From NCBI GenBank assembly GCA_963663235.2, contig CAXXNO010000005.1, positions 32,001-96,000 of the forward strand: 64,000 nucleotides of DNA, in the 5' to 3' direction. The position numbers and the translations under genes were made by a program. A model generated the notes under the pieces. The model worked only from the letters and a program-made list of their open reading frames with translations. It was not told where the DNA came from and did not search any database. Origin of the DNA: Dehalococcoidia bacterium. GTDB lineage: Bacteria > Chloroflexota > Dehalococcoidia > Bin125. Positions 5,608-22,048 of this stretch are shown here, piece by piece (the stretch's first letter is position 1; each line of letters begins with the position of its first letter).

Positions 5608-7410
5608 ATGGCGGCGACTAGCAAAGCAACGGCCCGAGTTGACCCGATCACCATCGAGGTGCTGCGCAGCGCCTTCATCGCGACCTGCAACGAGATGGCT
5701 CTCACCGTCGCCAAGACCGCCTATTCCACCCCGGTCAACGAAGGTCACGACTTCGCCACCGGCCTGTACGACAGTCACGGCAACCTCGTCTCACAGGGCG
5801 AGTTCGACCTGCCTGCGTTCGTGGGCCTCACGTTGCTCACTGTGCCGGAGGTCATGCGGCAGATCGGACCGGAGAACATCGAGCCCGGCGATATCTACAT
5901 TATCAACGACCCCTACGTGGCGACGACCCACTGCAACGATATTCACTTCATCAAGCCGATCTTCCACGGCGGTGAGCTGGTGGCCTTCACTTCATCCACC
6001 GCGCACTGGTCCGACGTGGGCGGCGTGGCGCCGGGGACGCTGAACACCGCGGCGCGCAGCCACTACGAGGAGGGGATGCGCATCCCCGCCGTCTCGCTGT
6101 ACAAGCGTGGGGTGTTCAACGAAGACATCGTCGCCCTGTTGCTGGTCAACATGCGCCAATCGTGGGAGCGGATCGGCGATCTCAACGCCCAAATTGCGTC
6201 GGTCAAGGTCGGCGAGCAGCGGATCTTGAAACTGATCGACAAACACGGCGTGGAGGCGGTGCTGGCCACGATGGACGTGGTGCAGGACCACTCGGAGCGG
6301 CTGGCGCGCGCCGCCTTCGCCGGCCTGCCGGACGGGGTCTACGACGCCGAGGACAGCGTCGACCAGGATCAATACACCGGCCAACCCAAGACGATCCGGC
6401 TTACGCTGACGATCGAGGGCGATCACGCCATCTTCGATTACAGGAAGAGTGACGGCCCCGCGCTCTCCGGCATCAACGGGACGATCGCGGGGACAACGTC
6501 GGGCACCTTCATCGCCATCGCCTCCATCTTGCCGCCGATGCCGATGAACGCCGGAGTGATGCGTGCCATCGAGATCAAGGCGAAGCGAGGGTCGATCGTC
6601 TGGGCGGAGCCACCGGTCGCTGTCTCCGTGATGACGATTACGGTCATGGACTGTGTGATCGGGTCGGCCACGCTGGCGCTGGGGCAAGCATTGCCCGAGC
6701 GCGCGGTCGGGATGGCGTCGGCGATCCTCAACTCGACCTACGCGGGAAACGACGACCGGCCGGGCTTTCAGGCGCCCTTCATCAACTACAGCTGGTCCTT
6801 CGGCGGAATGGGCGGGGCGCCCACGCACGACGGCCCCAATTCCACGGCGCCCCCGTTCGGCGCCAGCGTGTCGAACATTCCCAGTGAACTGCAAGAGCGC
6901 CGCTACCCAGTCTTGTACCGGCGCTCCAACCTCCTGGCCGATTCCGGCGGGCCGGGAGAGTCTCGAGGCGGCGCGGCCCTCAATACCATCGTCGAGTTCC
7001 CGTTCAAGGAAGTGAGCGGGGCCGGACTTTCGACGCTGGGCAATCGCGAACTCTTTGGACCGCCCGGGATCTTCGGAGGAGGAGTCGGCCAGGTCGCGCG
7101 CTTGTCGCTCAACGACGGGACCGAGAACGAACGGCACTTGGGCACGACGTCCACGAACGCGCCGGTGCAGCATGGCGATGTCTTGACCTTCCGCACGAAC
7201 GGGGGCGGCGGCCACGGCGATCCGCTCCAGCGGTCGCCCGAGCGCGTCCTGGAGGACATCAAGGACGACTACGCCACGATCGCAGGAGCGCGCGAGCAGT
7301 ACGGCGTTGTGGTGAAAGAGATCGACCGCCGTGCGCTGGTCTACGAGGTAGACGAGGCGGCGACGGCGAAGATGCGCGCCGGGATGCGCGCCGTTCGCGG
7401 CGCACGCTGA
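5608..7410 (+). CDS. Hydantoinase B/oxoprolinase family protein (clade I)
   Basis: DPITIEV, NDPYxxxTHCND, AHWSDVGG, EEG, DSGGPGESRGG, GGGGHGDP; GAGG RBS. Confidence 0.92.
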   Translation: MAATSKATARVDPITIEVLRSAFIATCNEMALTVAKTAYSTPVNEGHDFATGLYDSHGNLVSQGEFDLPAFVGLTLLTVPEVMRQIGPENIEPGDIYIINDPYVATTHCNDIHFIKPIFHGGELVAFTSSTAHWSDVGGVAPGTLNTAARSHYEEGMRIPAVSLYKRGVFNEDIVALLLVNMRQSWERIGDLNAQIASVKVGEQRILKLIDKHGVEAVLATMDVVQDHSERLARAAFAGLPDGVYDAEDSVDQDQYTGQPKTIRLTLTIEGDHAIFDYRKSDGPALSGINGTIAGTTSGTFIAIASILPPMPMNAGVMRAIEIKAKRGSIVWAEPPVAVSVMTITVMDCVIGSATLALGQALPERAVGMASAILNSTYAGNDDRPGFQAPFINYSWSFGGMGGAPTHDGPNSTAPPFGASVSNIPSELQERRYPVLYRRSNLLADSGGPGESRGGAALNTIVEFPFKEVSGAGLSTLGNRELFGPPGIFGGGVGQVARLSLNDGTENERHLGTTSTNAPVQHGDVLTFRTNGGGGHGDPLQRSPERVLEDIKDDYATIAGAREQYGVVVKEIDRRALVYEVDEAATAKMRAGMRAVRGAR

Positions 7411-17869: not shown

Positions 17870-18144
17870 CGTTCTGTACCTCCACCGGGCGCTCCCGGCC
17901 TAACGGCCCGGATGATCCCCATCTGCGGATATGCAAGCGACCGCCGTAGGAAGACCGGCTTTGCATGCTACCACCGCCATTGCGGATCGACCTCCCCGCA
18001 CAGAAGGAGCGCCCCCGAAGTCGATGCTCGGCGCCGGGATCGTGCCGAGTGAGCGACGCCGCCGATCACGGATCACCGTCGAGAAGACGTAGCAGTCGCT
18101 GAGTTGGACGGAGGGCGGTAGAATGACCCGCACTGGAGGAGGAG

Positions 18145-18408
18145 ATGACGCCAATGAAAACCGATGGACTGGAGATCCGCGTCGAGTACTGCGCCACCTG
18201 AAACTACTTACCGCGAGCCCTCTGGATGATGGGCGAGATCATGACAGACATTCAGAACGACGTGAGAAGCGTGGTGCTCAACCCTGGCAGCGGCGGCGTC
18301 TTCGAATGGTCGGTGAATGGGGATCTGGTCTTTAGTAAGGCTTCGACCGGCCGCTACCCCGAGATGAAGGAGCTCAAAGAGCTCATCTACGCCAAGCTGG
18401 ATGCGTGA
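18145..18408 (+). CDS. Rdx (SelT/SelW/SelH) family selenoprotein, CxxU
   Basis: GGAGGAGG RBS; MTPMKTDGLEIRVEYCAT-TGA(18199)-NYLPRALW...PGSGGVFEWSVNGDLVFSK..GRYP, in frame with ORF 18226..18408. Confidence 0.9.
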
Positions 18409-18417
18409 GGGTGCGAC

Positions 18418-18951
18418 ATGAAATCGATGGTCCGAGTCCTCAACCCGGTGGGGCATGTCCGCGTCAAAGAAGTGCAGGCGGCCCTGCGGCCGCGGTCCTT
18501 GGCCAACCTTCGCCCGGGGATCCTGGAGAATCGCAAGGCCAACGCCCGCCTGCTGATGGAGACGATGGTTGATCGCCTGCGCCAGCGCATGCCGCTCGGG
18601 GAGCTCACCGTCGGGAGCAAGCCCGTCGCCGCGCCGCCGAGTCGCGCCACCCTCGATCGCCTCGTCGCCAACTGTGACTTCGTCCTCGTGGGGTCGAGTG
18701 ATTGAGGCTCCTGCACGGCGTGGAGTGTCCACGCCGCCATCCTGCTTGAGAGCCAAGGAATCCCGACCGTAACCGTCGGTACGGACGCCTTCGCAGAGTT
18801 GCTGCGGATGGAAGCGGAACAGCGCGGCATGCCCGATCTGCCGCACGTCCTCGTGCCGCATCCGCTCGGCGGCGTGAAAGAAGACGCGGTCCGCGCCAAG
18901 ACCGTGCCGGTGGTGGACGACCTCATCGACGCACTGACGAGCGCCGGGTGA
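18418..18951 (+). CDS. UGSC-family selenoprotein
   Basis: LVGSSD-TGA(18703)-GSCTAWSVHAAILLESQGIPTVTVGTDAF...VPHPLGG reads on to the stop at 18951, which overlaps the next GTG start. Confidence 0.9.
18716..18736 (+). promoter_or_regulatory. Putative bacterial SECIS element
   Basis: cggcgtgga-gtg-tccacgccg, a perfect 9-bp stem beginning 10 nt after the TGA. Confidence 0.7.
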
Positions 18952-20036
18952 GCGATCCCCCGACGGCGCCGGGCGGCTCGCTCGGCGACGGCCGGGCCGC
19001 GGACGTTCTCGATCTGCCCGCTGACCCGGTCGCGTTCGCGGCGGAGTGCATACGGCGCAACTGGTCCAACGGACTGCCGCTCATCCCGCCGACGGAAGAG
19101 CGCGTCGCAGCCATGCTCGCCGAGGCGGGTCGGGACGCCCTGCAAGTGATCGCGGTGCTCGCGCCTCGCCAAGGGGAGGCGACCGTGCAAGCGATCGCCA
19201 CGAACGCGGTCATGGCCGGCTGCGAGCCGAAGCATCTGCCCATCGTCGTGGCAGCCGTACAGGGAATCGGCAGCGCGCGGTTCAACGTCGACGCCATCAA
19301 CGCGACGACGCACCCGTGCGCCGTCTTGGTGCTGGTCAACGGACCGATCGCGCGAGAGGCCGGCATCCATGGCGGCAGCGGTTGCTTCGGGCCCGGGTAT
19401 CCCGCCAACGCAACCATTGGTCGGGCCGTGCGACTCGTGCTGCTGAACGTTGCCGGGGCTCTCCCCGGTCACGGGGACAACGCCACGCAGGGCACGCCCG
19501 CCAAGTTCGCCTTCTGTGCCGCGGAGCGGGAAGATGCCAGCCCGTGGCCGCCATTTCACACCACGCGTGGCCTCGCGCCGGCAGAAAGCGCCGTGACCGT
19601 CTTCGCCTGTGAGGGACCGCACAACATTCAGGACCACGGCAGCAACACGGCGGACGGTGTTCTCAAGACGATCGCCGGCGCGATGGGTCAGGCCGGCAGC
19701 AACAACATCCTTGCCCGCGGCGAGCCCCTCCTGGTCTTGGGTCCGGAGCACGCCGCCACGATCGCGGCCGAAGGCTGGGGGCGCGAGGAGATCCAGGAGT
19801 TCCTCTTCAAGCACGCTCGCTACCCCAACGACCGGCTTTCCCCTGAGTTCTTGGATGTCGTCCAGCAACGACTGCAGGGCGACGAAGGCGGCACGCCCAT
19901 CGACATCACAGCCCCGTTACCGATCTCCGACCGGGCTGAGGAGATCCACATCATCGTCGCCGGCGGGCCCGGCAAGCACTCGGCCTGGATGCCGTCGTTC
20001 GGCGGCATGACCCGTCCTATAACTGTGCCGCTCTGA
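18948..20036 (+). CDS. Conserved hypothetical protein, UGSC-partner family
   Basis: WSNGLPLIPPTEERV, NAVMAGCEP, VNGP, ANATIGRA.RL, E....PW, V.GGPG; translationally coupled to the UGSC gene (GTGA overlap). Confidence 0.85.
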   Translation: MSDPPTAPGGSLGDGRAADVLDLPADPVAFAAECIRRNWSNGLPLIPPTEERVAAMLAEAGRDALQVIAVLAPRQGEATVQAIATNAVMAGCEPKHLPIVVAAVQGIGSARFNVDAINATTHPCAVLVLVNGPIAREAGIHGGSGCFGPGYPANATIGRAVRLVLLNVAGALPGHGDNATQGTPAKFAFCAAEREDASPWPPFHTTRGLAPAESAVTVFACEGPHNIQDHGSNTADGVLKTIAGAMGQAGSNNILARGEPLLVLGPEHAATIAAEGWGREEIQEFLFKHARYPNDRLSPEFLDVVQQRLQGDEGGTPIDITAPLPISDRAEEIHIIVAGGPGKHSAWMPSFGGMTRPITVPL

Positions 20037-20233
20037 CTCTCGCCCGCCCCGCTGGAGCGTGCCGCCGTGTCGCGTCCGAATCCTCCACGAGCGGTCCATC
20101 GTGGCAAGACCGCTGCTAGACTCCCGCCTGGGCGGTGTCGGAGAAGCGGGACGAGCGCCGTCGCTCTCCGCTCGCATCGATGGCCCGCGGGCCCTCGGAG
20201 GCCCGCTTTTGCATCTGACGAGGAGATCGCCCG

Positions 20234-22048
20234 GTGACACCGAGTGACGGTAGCGCGACGGCATCCGCCATCGATCCGATCCAGCTTCTCATCATGGCCA
20301 ACCGCCTCGACGGCGTCGTCCGCGAGATGACCAATACGCTCGTGCGCACCGCCCAGTCCGCCACCCTCGCCGCCCGTGATCTCTCCACCTCTATCTCCAG
20401 CGCAGACCACGAGCTCTTCGCCGCCCCCGAAGGCATCCCCGTCCACGTCTACGGCTCCGGCCTCCTCTGCGAGGCCATGGCCGAGATCCATCCCGACTTC
20501 AAGGAGGGCGACGCCTTTCTCCACAACGATCCCTACCTGGGCAACACCCACGCCGCCGACCACACCGTCTTGGTACCCGCCTTCTGCGAGGGCGAGCACG
20601 TCTTCACCATGTGCGTCAAAGCGCACCAGGCGGACATCGGCGATTCTCTCCCGACCACCTACATGCCCAAAGCGGTCGACGTGTACGCCGAGGGTGCCCT
20701 CATCTTCCCCTGCGTCCGCATCCAGGAGCACTACAAAGACGTGGCGGACATCATCCGCATGTGCGAGAAGCGCATCCGCGTTCCTGAGGTCTGGTACGGC
20801 GACTATGTGGCCATGATCGCGGCGGCCCGGGTAGGCGAGCAGGGCGTCAAGGAGTTCTGCGCCAAGTTTGGCCTGGAGACCGTGAAGGCCTTCGTGCGCG
20901 AATGGCTCGACTACTCTGAGCGCCTCGCCGACGCCGCGATCCGACGCCTCCCTGCCGGCCGCCTCCACGCCAGCTCGACCTTCGATCCCTTCCCGTACCT
21001 CCCGGAGGGTCTAAAACTCCAAGCCAACATCGACGTCGATCCGGACGCGGGCCACGTCACCGTGGACCTGCGCGATAACCCCGACTGCATCCCCACCGGG
21101 CTCAACCTCAGCCGCGCCACCGCCACGAACGGCGGCATCTCCGGCGTCCTCATGGTCCTCAACTCCATGCGCGATGTGCAGACCCAAGTCCCCAACAACG
21201 CCGGGACTTTCCGCCGCATCCACGTCCTGCTCCGCGAGAACTGCGTCGTCGGAATCCCTGTCCATCCCACCTCCTGCTCCATGGCCACCACCGGCATTGC
21301 TTGTCACCTCGAGAGCATGGTCGAATCTGCCTTCGCCCGTCTGCGGGACGGCATCGGTCTAGCGGAGCCCGCTCGGGGACAGGGGCCGTACATGGCGGTC
21401 GTGTCCGGCTTCGACCGGCGCCGCAACGAGCCCTACACGCTTTCGTTGTTCACCGGCAGCGCCGGCGGCCCGGGCGGTCCCGACGTCGACGGCTGGCTCA
21501 CGTTCCTGATGCCTGGCTCGGCCGGCGTGCAATATATCGACGCGACCGAGCTGCTCGAGCAGAAATATCCCTTCCTCGTCTTCGAGATGCGAGTCCGGCC
21601 CGACTCCGAAGGCGCGGGTCGTCAGCGCGGCGCGCCCGGCGGCATCACCGTCTATGGCCCCCTGGACGACCCCCAGGAGGTCCACTACTCCATGGATGGC
21701 ATGATCAACGCTCCGAAAGGCGTGCAGGGAGGCGGCCCCTCCCGCGGACCGGCGGCGCAGCTGATCGACCGCCAGGGCGCGACCCACGATCTGCCGAGCA
21801 TCGTTGGCGAACAGACGCTGCACGCCGGAGAGCGGATCGTCTCGCTCTCGTCCGGCGGTGGTGGCTACGGTGACCCCTTCACCCGTGATCTGGACGCAGT
21901 CCTTCGTGACGTCGTCGACGGCTACGTCAGCGTCGACCGCGCCAGTGAGACCTACGGTGTCGTCGTCACCGGCGACCCCACCCGTGTCGAAACCCTCGCC
22001 GTCGACCGTCAAGCCACCGCAGCATCCCGGGCGCGCGGGCGCCCGTAG
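20234..22048 (+). CDS. Hydantoinase B/oxoprolinase family protein (clade II)
   Basis: DPIQLL, PVHVYG, HNDPYLGNTHAAD, KAHQAD, DSEGAGRQRG, GGGGYGDP. Confidence 0.92.
   Translation: MTPSDGSATASAIDPIQLLIMANRLDGVVREMTNTLVRTAQSATLAARDLSTSISSADHELFAAPEGIPVHVYGSGLLCEAMAEIHPDFKEGDAFLHNDPYLGNTHAADHTVLVPAFCEGEHVFTMCVKAHQADIGDSLPTTYMPKAVDVYAEGALIFPCVRIQEHYKDVADIIRMCEKRIRVPEVWYGDYVAMIAAARVGEQGVKEFCAKFGLETVKAFVREWLDYSERLADAAIRRLPAGRLHASSTFDPFPYLPEGLKLQANIDVDPDAGHVTVDLRDNPDCIPTGLNLSRATATNGGISGVLMVLNSMRDVQTQVPNNAGTFRRIHVLLRENCVVGIPVHPTSCSMATTGIACHLESMVESAFARLRDGIGLAEPARGQGPYMAVVSGFDRRRNEPYTLSLFTGSAGGPGGPDVDGWLTFLMPGSAGVQYIDATELLEQKYPFLVFEMRVRPDSEGAGRQRGAPGGITVYGPLDDPQEVHYSMDGMINAPKGVQGGGPSRGPAAQLIDRQGATHDLPSIVGEQTLHAGERIVSLSSGGGGYGDPFTRDLDAVLRDVVDGYVSVDRASETYGVVVTGDPTRVETLAVDRQATAASRARGRP

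What the first reader, a model, noticed from the sequence alone, without database searches (positions are those of the whole stretch)
18145..20036. Hidden two-selenoprotein operon (Rdx CxxU + UGSC + conserved partner): candidate novel Prd/Grd-like reductase
Seen in sequence: three tightly packed genes (9-nt gap, then a GTGA overlap). Two are split in the ORF track by in-frame TGA codons inside redox motifs, CAT-U and D-U-GSC, each followed by a hairpin. Established knowledge, from recall: D-proline and glycine reductase selenoprotein B (PrdB/GrdB) carry U-G-T-C followed by a helix and 'E..GIP(T/V)'. The UGSC protein here reads LVGSSD-U-GSCTAWSVHAAILLESQGIPTV, the same layout. Inference: UGSC is a minimal Sec-nucleophile subunit, the 362-aa partner (GLPLIPPTEERV/NAVMAGC) is the substrate-binding subunit in place of the pyruvoyl PrdA/GrdE, and Rdx recycles the Se-S bond. 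Together they could form an uncharacterised reductive C-heteroatom cleavage enzyme.
Basis: partly seen in the sequence, partly recalled or inferred. Interest (0 to 1): 0.88.

Follow-up and report, generated by a model that had tools for sequence, protein, structure and literature searches.

The report
Selenoprotein UGSC with its conserved partner
Three co-directional genes encode two already-known selenoproteins (a SelW/Rdx-like one and a UGSC-family one) plus an unnamed 362-residue protein that almost always accompanies or is fused to UGSC, and together UGSC and this partner look like an uncharacterised two-part selenium enzyme distantly related to the glycine/proline reductase selenoprotein B.

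Summary
Three packed genes lie at 18145-20036. Two have in-frame TGA codons inside CATU and DUGSC motifs, and the genome has selA, selB, selD and tRNA-Sec.

Neither selenoprotein is new. They match Pfam Rdx (PF10262) and UGSC (PF24696), a family described since 2007-2008 with unknown function.

- The family-less 362-aa partner sits beside UGSC on the same strand in 76 of 80 related loci from many bacterial and archaeal phyla. It does so at all three UGSC loci of this genome.
- It is fused to UGSC, in either order, in 57 of 150 partner-family representatives.
- A profile-profile comparison aligns UGSC residues 76-151 with the Sec-bearing core of GrdB/PrdB-like proteins, Sec on Sec (Prob 95.4%, controls under 1%).
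- UGSC models as a flavodoxin-like alpha/beta fold, not the thioredoxin-like fold suggested in print.
- A complex model of a natural Cys-type pair scores 0.78 against 0.00 for controls, with the Sec-position residue in the interface.

Rdx is not a core part: it occurs in 1 of 80 related loci and at 1 of 3 loci in this genome. The substrate and reaction remain unknown. I read it as a new variant of a known kind, of moderate-to-high interest.

The parts
18135..18144 (+). Shine-Dalgarno-like GGAGGAGGAG directly before the Rdx ATG
   Evidence: Read from the sequence.
18145..18408 (+). SelW/SelT/SelH (Rdx) family selenoprotein gene, 87 aa, motif C-A-T-U
   Evidence: PF10262 E 8.3e-22, 77.6 bits against cut-off 22.6. 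TIGR02174 65.4 bits against cut-off 34.2. It is the only Rdx gene found in the genome.
18199..18201 (+). In-frame TGA read as Sec-19 of Rdx
   Evidence: Translation. The homolog in L023 has Cys here, motif CADC. No differing letter in contigs of runs X4, X7 and X20.
18214..18237 (+). Small hairpin with apical loop UGGAU, 15 nt after the Rdx TGA; a possible weak SECIS
   Evidence: -9.7 kcal/mol, z -0.1. It is not distinguishable from shuffles, so it is unproven.
18418..18951 (+). UGSC-family selenoprotein gene, 177 aa, motif D-U-G-S-C
   Evidence: PF24696 E 2.3e-46, 158.5 bits against cut-off 25. NF041046 121.5 bits, just under its cut-off of 125. Model pLDDT 92.3, five beta-alpha units.
18703..18705 (+). 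In-frame TGA read as Sec-96 of UGSC
   Evidence: Translation. Cys in 16 of 16 full-length homologs. TGA at the same column in 69 of 76 neighbouring UGSC genes of other genomes. No differing letter in runs X4 and X7.
18706..18754 (+). SECIS-like hairpin after the UGSC TGA; the conserved core stem-loop is 18719-18733
   Evidence: -26.9 kcal/mol, z -2.5; consensus stem at positions 17-21 and 27-31 after the TGA in 73 distinct sequences, with the pair 21-27 switching GC (52) to CG (16).
18948..20036 (+). Gene for the 362-aa UGSC partner protein, which has no Pfam or NCBIfam family. Invariant residues in window numbering: G42, A84, V88, A90, G91, C92, T121, G132, G148, N154, G158, R159, A160, P184, E193, H268, G338
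   Evidence: No family matched. 5022 50%-identity clusters match at E<=1e-3. Model pLDDT 93.4. Invariants come from the 47-sequence alignment A3, converted from L100 numbering by -21; this offset was checked for G42, C92, T121, R159, E193 and H268 against A2.
20187..20216 (+). Terminator-like GC hairpin followed by TTTTGCATCT, between the partner gene and the next gene (hyuB-like, 20234-22048)
   Evidence: 7 GC pairs. 4 such sites in 5 kb against 1.8 expected, so it is only a hint that the three genes form one unit.

Best explanation
UGSC and the 362-aa protein are the two subunits of one selenoenzyme; in other organisms they are the two domains of one chain. UGSC is a small flavodoxin-like alpha/beta protein. 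It is homologous to the Sec-bearing core of the selenoprotein B of glycine, betaine, sarcosine and proline reductases.

UGSC presents Sec-96 and the resolving Cys-99 (U-G-S-C) at the N-terminus of a helix. Its unstructured N-terminal arm and this Sec loop dock onto the partner, next to the partner's most conserved motifs (DGLPxxPPT, NAVMAGC, ATTHP). The active site is therefore composite.

By analogy with GrdB/PrdB, which is inference and not shown, a substrate held by the partner is attacked by the selenolate. The adduct is resolved by Cys-99 to a Se-S bond, which is then re-reduced by a thiol system. Here that system may be the adjacent Rdx (CxxU) protein. In 8 of 80 other loci it may be an adjacent thioredoxin-reductase-like flavoprotein.

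Variable neighbours suggest a small organic or amino acid substrate. These neighbours are TctC and TRAP transporters, CoA-transferases, enoyl-CoA hydratases, MmgE/PrpD, F420/LLM oxidoreductases, and an amidase and hydantoinase B here. The substrate and the reaction are not identified.
For: 1. Sec decoding: see the observation check.
2. Pairing. A UGSC HMM hit lies on the same strand in 76 of 80 partner loci from different species. These include Chloroflexota, Methylomirabilota, Alpha-, Beta-, Gamma- and Deltaproteobacteria, Acidobacteriota, Actinomycetota, a Bacillota isolate, Nitrosocosmicus and Methanobacteriaceae. Gaps are 219 nt or less in 69 of the 76. Order is UGSC-partner in 58 and partner-UGSC in 18.
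3. This genome has three pairs, in both orders.
4. In 151 sampled genomes of the phylum, UGSC is found in 13 and the partner in 15, and all 13 UGSC genomes have the partner. One of the 13 is the unpublished G038.
5. Fusions. 57 of 150 partner-family representatives carry UGSC in the same chain. Of these, 18 are whole N-terminal fusions. 35 start just after the Sec codon. 4 have UGSC at the C-terminus and end exactly at '...GD' or '...AD', just before the Sec codon.
6. Homology to the GrdB/PrdB core. hhalign of the 17-row UGSC alignment against 29 GRDB-like rows gives Prob 95.4%, E 1.7e-8 over 67 columns. Sec aligns on Sec, Cys on Cys, 'LE..G(I/V)PT' and 'HPLG/FPLG' match.
7. NCBIfam scan of 17 UGSC proteins: 10 hit GrdB, 7 hit PrdB and 4 hit GrdF weakly. 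No other family recurs.
8. Complex model of the natural Cys-type pair of L100. ipSAE is 0.78, 0.77 and 0.79 against a best control of 0.00. That mark was reached by 58 of 80 solved complexes and 2 of 110 mismatched pairs, and these counts hold only roughly because my own alignments were used. The runs agree in at least 73% of contacts and the partner-chain pLDDT is at least 85. The interface includes UGSC 102-104 (the Sec-position Cys, Gly, Ser) and partner 68-71, 106-110 and 140-142, which lie in invariant motifs.
9. Redox neighbours. A TrxR-like gene (TIGR01292 E 7.8e-46, below cut-off) abuts UGSC upstream in 8 of 80 loci. Rdx does so here and in L023.
Against: - No substrate, product or activity is known.
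- The partner has no detectable relation to the pyruvoyl subunits PrdA/GrdE: 0 of 47 partner proteins hit PF09338 at E<=1.
- The homology with GrdB-like proteins covers only about 67 columns, and UGSC fails every GrdB/PrdB curated cut-off (16.3 bits against 602.2).
- The system occurs in many aerobes, unlike the Stickland reductases.
- Six of 19 full-length fusion proteins have L, I, S, G or Q at the Sec position, so some members cannot use this chemistry.
- Neighbours are variable: the most frequent, TctC, is in only 19 of 80 loci.
- Rdx is absent from 79 of 80 related loci.
- The complex model is a prediction made on a homologous Cys-type pair, not on the window's own proteins.
Confidence: 0.5

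Rival explanations
1. The partner is the real enzyme and uses its invariant Cys-92 in a non-reductive reaction. UGSC is only its dedicated selenol/thiol oxidoreductase. It keeps or regenerates that cysteine, as thioredoxin-type proteins do for peroxiredoxins or methionine sulfoxide reductases.
For: - UxxC is a classic redox motif.
- The partner has one invariant Cys in NAVMAGC close to interface residues.
- The published view of UGSC is of a thiol-oxidoreductase-like protein (passages of PMC2398784).
- The Atlas auto-names one partner cluster 'Thiol-disulfide oxidoreductase family protein'; this is an automatic label only.
- TrxR-like or Rdx neighbours fit a redox relay.
Against: - UGSC's only detectable relatives are the substrate-attacking GrdB/PrdB selenoproteins, not thioredoxins.
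- Its model is flavodoxin-like.
- Obligate 1:1 pairing and frequent fusion fit a catalytic subunit better than a general reductant.
Confidence: 0.25
2. Sec-96 and Cys-99 of UGSC, with Cys-92 and His-122 of the partner, bind a metal or an iron-sulfur-type cofactor at the interface. The pair would then be a metalloenzyme, for example a hydro-lyase, or a metal handler, rather than a GrdB-like reductase.
For: - The only Foldseek matches with probability near 0.9 for the partner are class I (Fe-S) fumarate hydratases.
- Cys and His are conserved near the predicted interface.
Against: - The partner has only one invariant Cys.
- No metal or cluster could be modelled.
- Homology of UGSC to GrdB/PrdB points to nucleophilic Sec chemistry.
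Confidence: 0.1
3. Rdx, UGSC and the partner act as a fixed three-protein system, with Rdx as the obligatory recycler of the Se-S bond.
For: - The gap is 9 nt and a shared strong Shine-Dalgarno sequence lies upstream.
- The same order, LLM oxidoreductase then Rdx, UGSC and partner, occurs in the closest relative L023.
- An RNA-library contig of 270 nt spans Rdx into the start of UGSC (18184-18453). The tool warns that this does not show a single transcript or transcription.
Against: - Rdx is found in 1 of 80 related loci by phmmer with a single query.
- This genome has one Rdx against three UGSC-partner pairs.
- The Rdx SECIS-like hairpin is not better than shuffles.
Confidence: 0.12
4. The TGA codons are real stops or errors, and the pieces are fragments or pseudogenes.
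For: None beyond the default reading of TGA.
Against: - HMM alignments are continuous across both TGAs.
- Cys-aligned homologs exist.
- The SECIS-like hairpin is conserved and covaries.
- TGA stands at the same column in 69 of 76 loci.
- The Sec machinery is complete.
- The same letters are read in other public runs.
Confidence: 0.02

Closest known systems
UGSC family (seleno)protein (Pfam PF24696, NCBIfam NF041046), the 'UGSC-containing protein' of Zhang and Gladyshev
   Same: Gene 2 is a member. The HMM match is full-length, the D-U-G-S-C motif is present, and Sec and Cys forms exist. The family is described as a major aquatic selenoprotein family of unknown function. A fusion to a conserved domain 'Unknown_1' is reported (passages of PMC2398784 and PMC1976440).
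   Different: The gene itself is nothing new. New relative to the passages I read are the near-obligate pairing with one partner family, a flavodoxin-like rather than 'likely Trx-like' fold, and the homology to the GrdB/PrdB core. I could not check whether 'Unknown_1' is this partner, because Figure S1A is a supplement and supplements are closed.
Selenoprotein B of glycine, sarcosine, betaine and D-proline reductases (GrdB, GrdF, GrdH, PrdB; PF07355, TIGR01917, TIGR01918, TIGR04483)
   Same: The layout is beta-strand, U-x-x-C, helix ending in E..G(I/V)PT, next strand, then (H/F)PLG. Profile-profile homology covers 67 columns with Sec on Sec. There are weak recurrent HMM hits. The protein works together with a second, larger subunit; for PrdA/PrdB this is from passages of PMC11229817.
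   Different: UGSC is far below every curated cut-off and lacks the N-terminal part of GrdB-type proteins. Its partner is unrelated in sequence to the pyruvoyl proproteins GrdE/PrdA. No GrdA, GrdE or PrdA was found in this genome, although those searches had no positive control. Carriers include aerobes and archaea.
SelW/SelT/SelH (Rdx) family, bacterial SelW-like proteins (PF10262, TIGR02174)
   Same: Gene 1 is a member with the CxxU motif.
   Different: It lies next to a UGSC-partner pair only here and in the closest relative, where it is a Cys form.
GRDB-family 'PrdB-like' selenoproteins of the same genome (contig C8)
   Same: Two further Sec proteins read 'LLVPV-U-PVC...ELEAAGVPT' and 'LLAPV-U-PAC...'. 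They are the closest sequence relatives of the UGSC core that I could align.
   Different: They are 307 and 421 aa long, have an N-terminal GRDB domain, and are not next to a partner-family gene.

Membership tests
UGSC family (PF24696 / NF041046) | Full-length match to the family HMM above the curated cut-off | tested here: met
   PF24696 scores 158.5 bits against cut-off 25, over residues 7-174. NF041046 scores 121.5 bits against cut-off 125, which is just under it.
UGSC family (PF24696 / NF041046) | U-G-S-C motif, with Cys in the non-Sec homologs | tested here: met
   The motif is D-U-G-S-C at residues 95-99. 16 of 16 aligned homologs have DCGSC or DCGSG.
Rdx / SelW-like (PF10262, TIGR02174) | HMM match above the cut-off and a CxxU/CxxC motif near the N-terminus | tested here: met
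   77.6 bits against cut-off 22.6, and 65.4 against 34.2. C16-A-T-U19. The L023 homolog reads CADC.
Bacterial selenoprotein (Sec decoding) | selA, selB, selD and tRNA-Sec in the genome | tested here: met
   All are above their cut-offs, and tRNA-Sec (tca) lies on C4.
Bacterial selenoprotein (Sec decoding) | SECIS hairpin shortly after the UGA | tested here: met
   This applies to UGSC: a strong, conserved, covarying hairpin. For Rdx the result is inconclusive, because its small hairpin is no better than shuffles.
Bacterial selenoprotein (Sec decoding) | Selenium actually incorporated | not testable with these tools
   This needs 75Se labelling or mass spectrometry.
GrdB/PrdB selenoprotein B (PF07355, TIGR01917, TIGR04483) | Match to a family HMM above the curated cut-off | tested here: not met
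   TIGR01917 scores 16.3 bits against cut-off 602.2. No PF07355 hit was reported at E<=0.1.
GrdB/PrdB selenoprotein B (PF07355, TIGR01917, TIGR04483) | Homologous Sec-bearing core with UxxC | tested here: met
   hhalign gives Prob 95.4%, E 1.7e-8. Controls give 0.3-0.6%, and masking the Sec/Cys columns still gives 91.8%.
GrdB/PrdB selenoprotein B (PF07355, TIGR01917, TIGR04483) | Works with a pyruvoyl proprotein subunit (GrdE/PrdA, PF09338) | tested here: not met
   0 of 47 partner proteins hit PF09338 at E<=1. PF09338 was not found in the genome, which is 91.9% complete, but the control genomes did not ring either. Whether the partner carries a pyruvoyl group is not testable here.
GrdB/PrdB selenoprotein B (PF07355, TIGR01917, TIGR04483) | Same three-dimensional fold | not testable with these tools
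   A GRDB-like query found no solved structure by sequence.
Thioredoxin-fold oxidoreductases (the published suggestion for UGSC) | Thioredoxin-like fold | tested here: inconclusive

The most novel reading that the evidence does not exclude
UGSC plus its partner is a widespread, previously unrecognised class of two-subunit or fused selenoenzyme, found in bacteria and archaea and including aerobes. In it a minimal GrdB/PrdB-type Sec subunit works with a catalytic subunit of a fold not seen in solved structures. The enzyme would carry out a reductive or Sec-nucleophilic bond cleavage on a small organic or amino acid. This would extend Stickland-type selenium chemistry well beyond anaerobic fermenters.
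Probability: 0.35. Interest if true: 0.8.

Novelty: new variant of a known kind. Interest (0 to 1): 0.6.

Why it matters
UGSC-containing proteins are among the most abundant selenoproteins in aquatic metagenomes. Passages of PMC2398784 give 255 Sec forms in the GOS data. The 2026 review passages I read still list them as uncharacterised (PMC13188914).

Tying UGSC to one obligate partner family gives a concrete, testable model for a large orphan family. That family has 5022 clusters at 50% identity. Tying UGSC to the GrdB/PrdB catalytic core adds a mechanistic lead.

The work also points to tractable material. Natural Cys-type pairs occur in a cultured Parapusillimonas strain and in Methanobacteriaceae genomes. 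A fused Sec form occurs in a Robertmurraya isolate. It also corrects the expected fold.

Tried and rejected
- Sequence searches of the PDB with the partner, with UGSC (single sequence and profile) and with a GRDB-like protein gave only chance-level hits, E 0.1 or above.
- Fold searches for the partner gave no convincing relative. I do not claim that the fold is new.
- The ESM Atlas gave only unnamed or automatically named clusters.
- Rfam at gathering thresholds found nothing in the window.
- BLASTP of UGSC against the genome's GRDB-like protein matched only 13 residues around 'LE..GIPT', E 0.23. The profile comparison was needed.
- hhalign of the partner against GRDB-like proteins gave Prob 0.6%, so I dropped the idea that the partner is the missing N-terminal part of GrdB.
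- A fixed conserved neighbourhood beyond the pair was sought and not found.
- The N-terminal extensions of the two paralogous partner ORFs (656 and 520 aa) matched no Pfam family and may be over-long ORF calls.
- The promoter scan found no sigma-70-like site.
- RNA runs: X19 and X20 hold only small parts of the stretch (5 and 7 of 30 bins). The tool states that this does not show transcription. Parts of the stretch without RNA cover say nothing.
- I considered a pyruvoyl-forming self-cleavage at the invariant Gly91-Cys92 of the partner. I left it as an untested idea.
- I could not see Figure S1A of PMC2398784, because supplements are closed. It may already show this partner as 'Unknown_1'.
- Papers: PMC2398784, PMC13188914, PMC9312934, PMC1976440 and PMC11229817 were read as passages only. 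All other titles were seen only in search listings.
- My statement that no functional study of UGSC is in print rests on search alone (terms 'UGSC' and 'selenoprotein', 9 papers).
Full report
**What is there**

On the + strand of the window lie three genes.
- Gene 1 runs 18145-18408 (87 aa). It is preceded by GGAGGAGGAG and has an in-frame TGA at 18199-18201 in the motif C-A-T-U.
- Gene 2 runs 18418-18951 (177 aa), starts 9 nt after gene 1, and has an in-frame TGA at 18703-18705 in D-U-G-S-C.
- Gene 3 runs 18948-20036 (362 aa). Its GTG start overlaps the stop of gene 2 as GTGA.

A terminator-like GC hairpin with a T run lies at 20187-20216, before the next gene. That gene is a hydantoinase-B/caprolactamase-beta-like gene at 20234-22048.

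**Are the TGAs selenocysteine codons?**

Yes, as far as sequence evidence can show.
- Read through, gene 1 matches Pfam Rdx (PF10262, E 8e-22). Gene 2 matches Pfam UGSC (PF24696, E 2e-46). Both alignments cross the TGA.
- NCBIfam agrees: TIGR02174 is above its cut-off, and NF041046 scores 121.5 bits, just under its cut-off of 125.
- All 16 full-length UGSC homologs that I aligned carry Cys at the Sec column.
- The Rdx gene of the closest relative (L023) reads CADC where the window reads CATU.
- The genome, 2.75 Mb and 91.9% complete, has selA, selB, selD (itself with one TGA) and a tRNA-Sec.
- The 62 nt after the UGSC TGA fold into a strong hairpin (-26.9 kcal/mol, z -2.5).
- In 73 distinct Sec-type UGSC genes the consensus keeps a 5-bp stem at positions 17-21 and 27-31 after the TGA. 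One pair switches between G-C (52) and C-G (16).
- The hairpin after the Rdx TGA is small and no better than shuffles (z -0.1).
- Contigs of two other public runs from different studies cover both TGAs without a differing letter.

**What is already known**

Both families are established selenoprotein families.
- Passages of PMC1976440 (2007) call UGSC a selenoprotein of unknown function.
- Passages of PMC2398784 (2008) list it among the most abundant selenoproteins of the GOS data (255 Sec forms, 21 Cys forms). [quoted passage not shown]
- The figure showing that fusion is a supplement, which I could not open.
- Reviews of 2022 and 2026 still list the family without a function.

**The partner**

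The 362-aa protein matches no Pfam or NCBIfam family. None of 47 diverse members gives a recurrent weak hit. Yet it is a very large family: 5022 clusters at 50% identity match at E<=1e-3, and 1223 at E<=1e-30.

Three independent lines tie it to UGSC.

- Gene neighbourhood:
  - Among the best 80 of 548 related loci from different species, 76 have a UGSC-HMM hit on the same strand. The 80 span nine or more phyla, including Archaea.
  - 69 of those 76 lie within 219 nt. UGSC comes before the partner in 58 and after it in 18.
  - Two of the four loci without UGSC (L038, L096) have the partner within about 130 nt of the contig end on the upstream side.
  - At the Sec column the neighbouring UGSC has TGA in 69, Cys in 5, Gly in 1, and is cut off in 1.
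- Paralogy and phyletic pattern:
  - This genome has three UGSC genes, each with one TGA and each next to a partner paralog, in both orders.
  - In 151 sampled genomes of the phylum, UGSC was found in 13 and the partner in 15. All 13 UGSC genomes have the partner, mostly on the same contig.
  - One of the 13, G038, is unpublished.
- Fusion:
  - 57 of 150 partner-family representatives carry UGSC in the same polypeptide. In 18 a whole UGSC lies at the N-terminus.
  - In 35 the chain starts just after the Sec codon. This is what a gene caller makes of a fused Sec gene.
  - In 4 UGSC lies at the C-terminus and the chain ends exactly at '...GD' or '...AD', just before the Sec codon.

Of 19 full-length fusions, 13 have Cys at the Sec column and 6 have L, I, S, G or Q.

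**Relation to GrdB/PrdB**

- The window's UGSC gives a weak hit to the glycine reductase selenoprotein B model across its Sec region (TIGR01917, E 0.0036).
- Across 17 UGSC proteins the only recurrent foreign families are GrdB (10 of 17), PrdB (7), GrdF (4) and the general selenoprotein B model (1).
- The genome itself encodes two GRDB-family selenoproteins. One reads 'LLVPV-U-PVC-HQSVGLIARELEAAGVPT'.
- I collected 28 further relatives from the phylum.
- I then compared the resulting 29-row alignment with the UGSC alignment by hhalign. It gave Prob 95.4%, E 1.7e-8 over 67 columns. UGSC 76-151 aligns on GRDB-like 149-216, with Sec on Sec, Cys on Cys, 'LE..G(I/V)PT' and '(H/F)PLG' aligned.
- Controls: UGSC against the partner alignment gave 0.6%, and against the reversed GRDB alignment 0.3%. 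With the Sec and Cys columns masked the match still gave 91.8%.
- So UGSC is a remote homolog of the catalytic core of selenoprotein B, not a member of that family.

**Structures**

- UGSC models with pLDDT 92.3 as five beta-alpha units. Sec sits at the N-terminus of the third helix and the first 30 residues are unstructured.

**Complex**

I then sent a natural Cys-type pair, with alignments built only from locus translations. The pair comes from L100, a Parapusillimonas granuli strain: partner 401 aa, UGSC 198 aa.
- The model supports binding but does not show it. ipSAE was 0.78, 0.77 and 0.79 against 0.00 for the best of three controls.
- That mark was reached by 58 of 80 solved complexes and 2 of 110 mismatched pairs. 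These counts hold only roughly, because my own alignments were used.
- The runs agree in at least 73% of their contacts, and the partner-chain pLDDT is at least 85.
- The interface holds the UGSC N-terminal arm (residues 7-21) and residues 102-104, that is the Sec-position Cys, Gly and Ser.
- On the partner it holds residues 68-71 (the PPT motif), 106-110 (within NAVMAGC) and 140-142 (ATT of ATTHP). These are among the family's most conserved residues.

**Rdx and other redox neighbours**

- Rdx stands next to the pair only here and in the closest relative, 1 of 80 loci. In that relative the whole order, LLM oxidoreductase then Rdx, UGSC and partner, is kept.
- The genome has only one Rdx gene.
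- In 8 of 80 loci, a thioredoxin-reductase-like flavoprotein gene abuts UGSC upstream on the same strand. Six of these are alphaproteobacterial, one is from Acidobacteriota and one from Dehalococcoidales.
- Different lineages thus place different thiol-redox genes beside the pair. This fits a UxxC motif that must be re-reduced, but it does not make Rdx a core component.

**Other neighbours**

The remaining neighbours vary:

| Neighbour | Loci of 80 |
|---|---|
| TctC receptors | 19 |
| CoA-transferase III | 10 |
| LLM oxidoreductases | 9 |
| SDR | 9 |
| Enoyl-CoA hydratase | 7 |
| MmgE/PrpD | 6 |
| DUF6282 | 4 |

In the window itself the neighbours are an amidase, an F420-type LLM oxidoreductase and a hydantoinase-B-like gene. 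This suggests catabolism of small organic or amino acids but names no substrate.

**Verdict**

- The selenoproteins are known families, and a UGSC fusion was noted in 2008.
- The session adds four things: the near-obligate UGSC-partner module, its homology to the GrdB/PrdB core, a corrected fold, and a predicted composite active site.
- I read the module as a two-part selenoenzyme that works like selenoprotein B with a different catalytic partner (confidence 0.5). The main rival is that UGSC is merely the partner's dedicated reductant (0.25).
- Function and substrate are unknown.

Noticed in passing
G000 contig C8: L021 1075-1998 (-) and L022 721-1986 (-): There are two further selenoproteins of the GRDB (PF07355) family, 307 and 421 aa, with motifs U-P-V-C and U-P-A-C. 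No GrdA or GrdE/PrdA was found in the genome. The first lies next to a 421-aa ORF (L021 2091-3356, -) that I did not identify.
   Followed up: partly
G000 C4:15937-17471 (-) and C12:214174-215746 (+); loci L019 and L020: There are two paralogous partner-UGSC pairs, both in the order partner then UGSC and both with TGA. One lies beside an aldehyde:ferredoxin oxidoreductase gene and a TPP enzyme gene. The other lies beside a thioredoxin-TPR gene and another LLM oxidoreductase gene. The partner ORFs run 656 and 520 aa, with N-terminal extensions that match no family.
   Followed up: partly
G000 C4:103776-104699: The selD gene itself contains one in-frame TGA, so it is probably a Sec-type SelD.
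   Followed up: no
window 5608-7410 (+) and 20234-22048 (+): There are two hydantoinase B/oxoprolinase (caprolactamase-beta-like) genes in the window. I did not notice an obvious hydantoinase A gene among the ORFs I scanned.
   Followed up: no
L041, L042, L043, L045, L049, L054, L065, L079 (downstream of the partner gene): Seven alphaproteobacterial-type loci, and L079 (labelled only 'bacterium'), carry a second partner paralog directly after the first. It is shorter in seven of them (HMM positions about 10-277). This gives the order TrxR-like, UGSC, partner, partner-like.
   Followed up: partly
P0102, P0188, P0238, P0262, P0297, P0315: Six full-length UGSC-partner fusion proteins have L, I, S, G or Q instead of Sec or Cys at the active-site column. 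They may be degenerate or differently working members.
   Followed up: no
window 18700-18737, in runs X4, X7 and X19: Contig depth at the DUGSCTAWS-coding stretch is tens to hundreds of times the flanks, up to about 3000 in an RNA library. Many contigs here diverge on both sides. Many other organisms in those samples therefore carry, and perhaps express, UGSC genes.
   Followed up: no
L035, L039, L063, L072: A DUF6282 gene lies between or just after UGSC and the partner in four loci. In L097 an AIM24-family gene sits between them, and in L061 an AstE/AspA-like gene does.
   Followed up: partly
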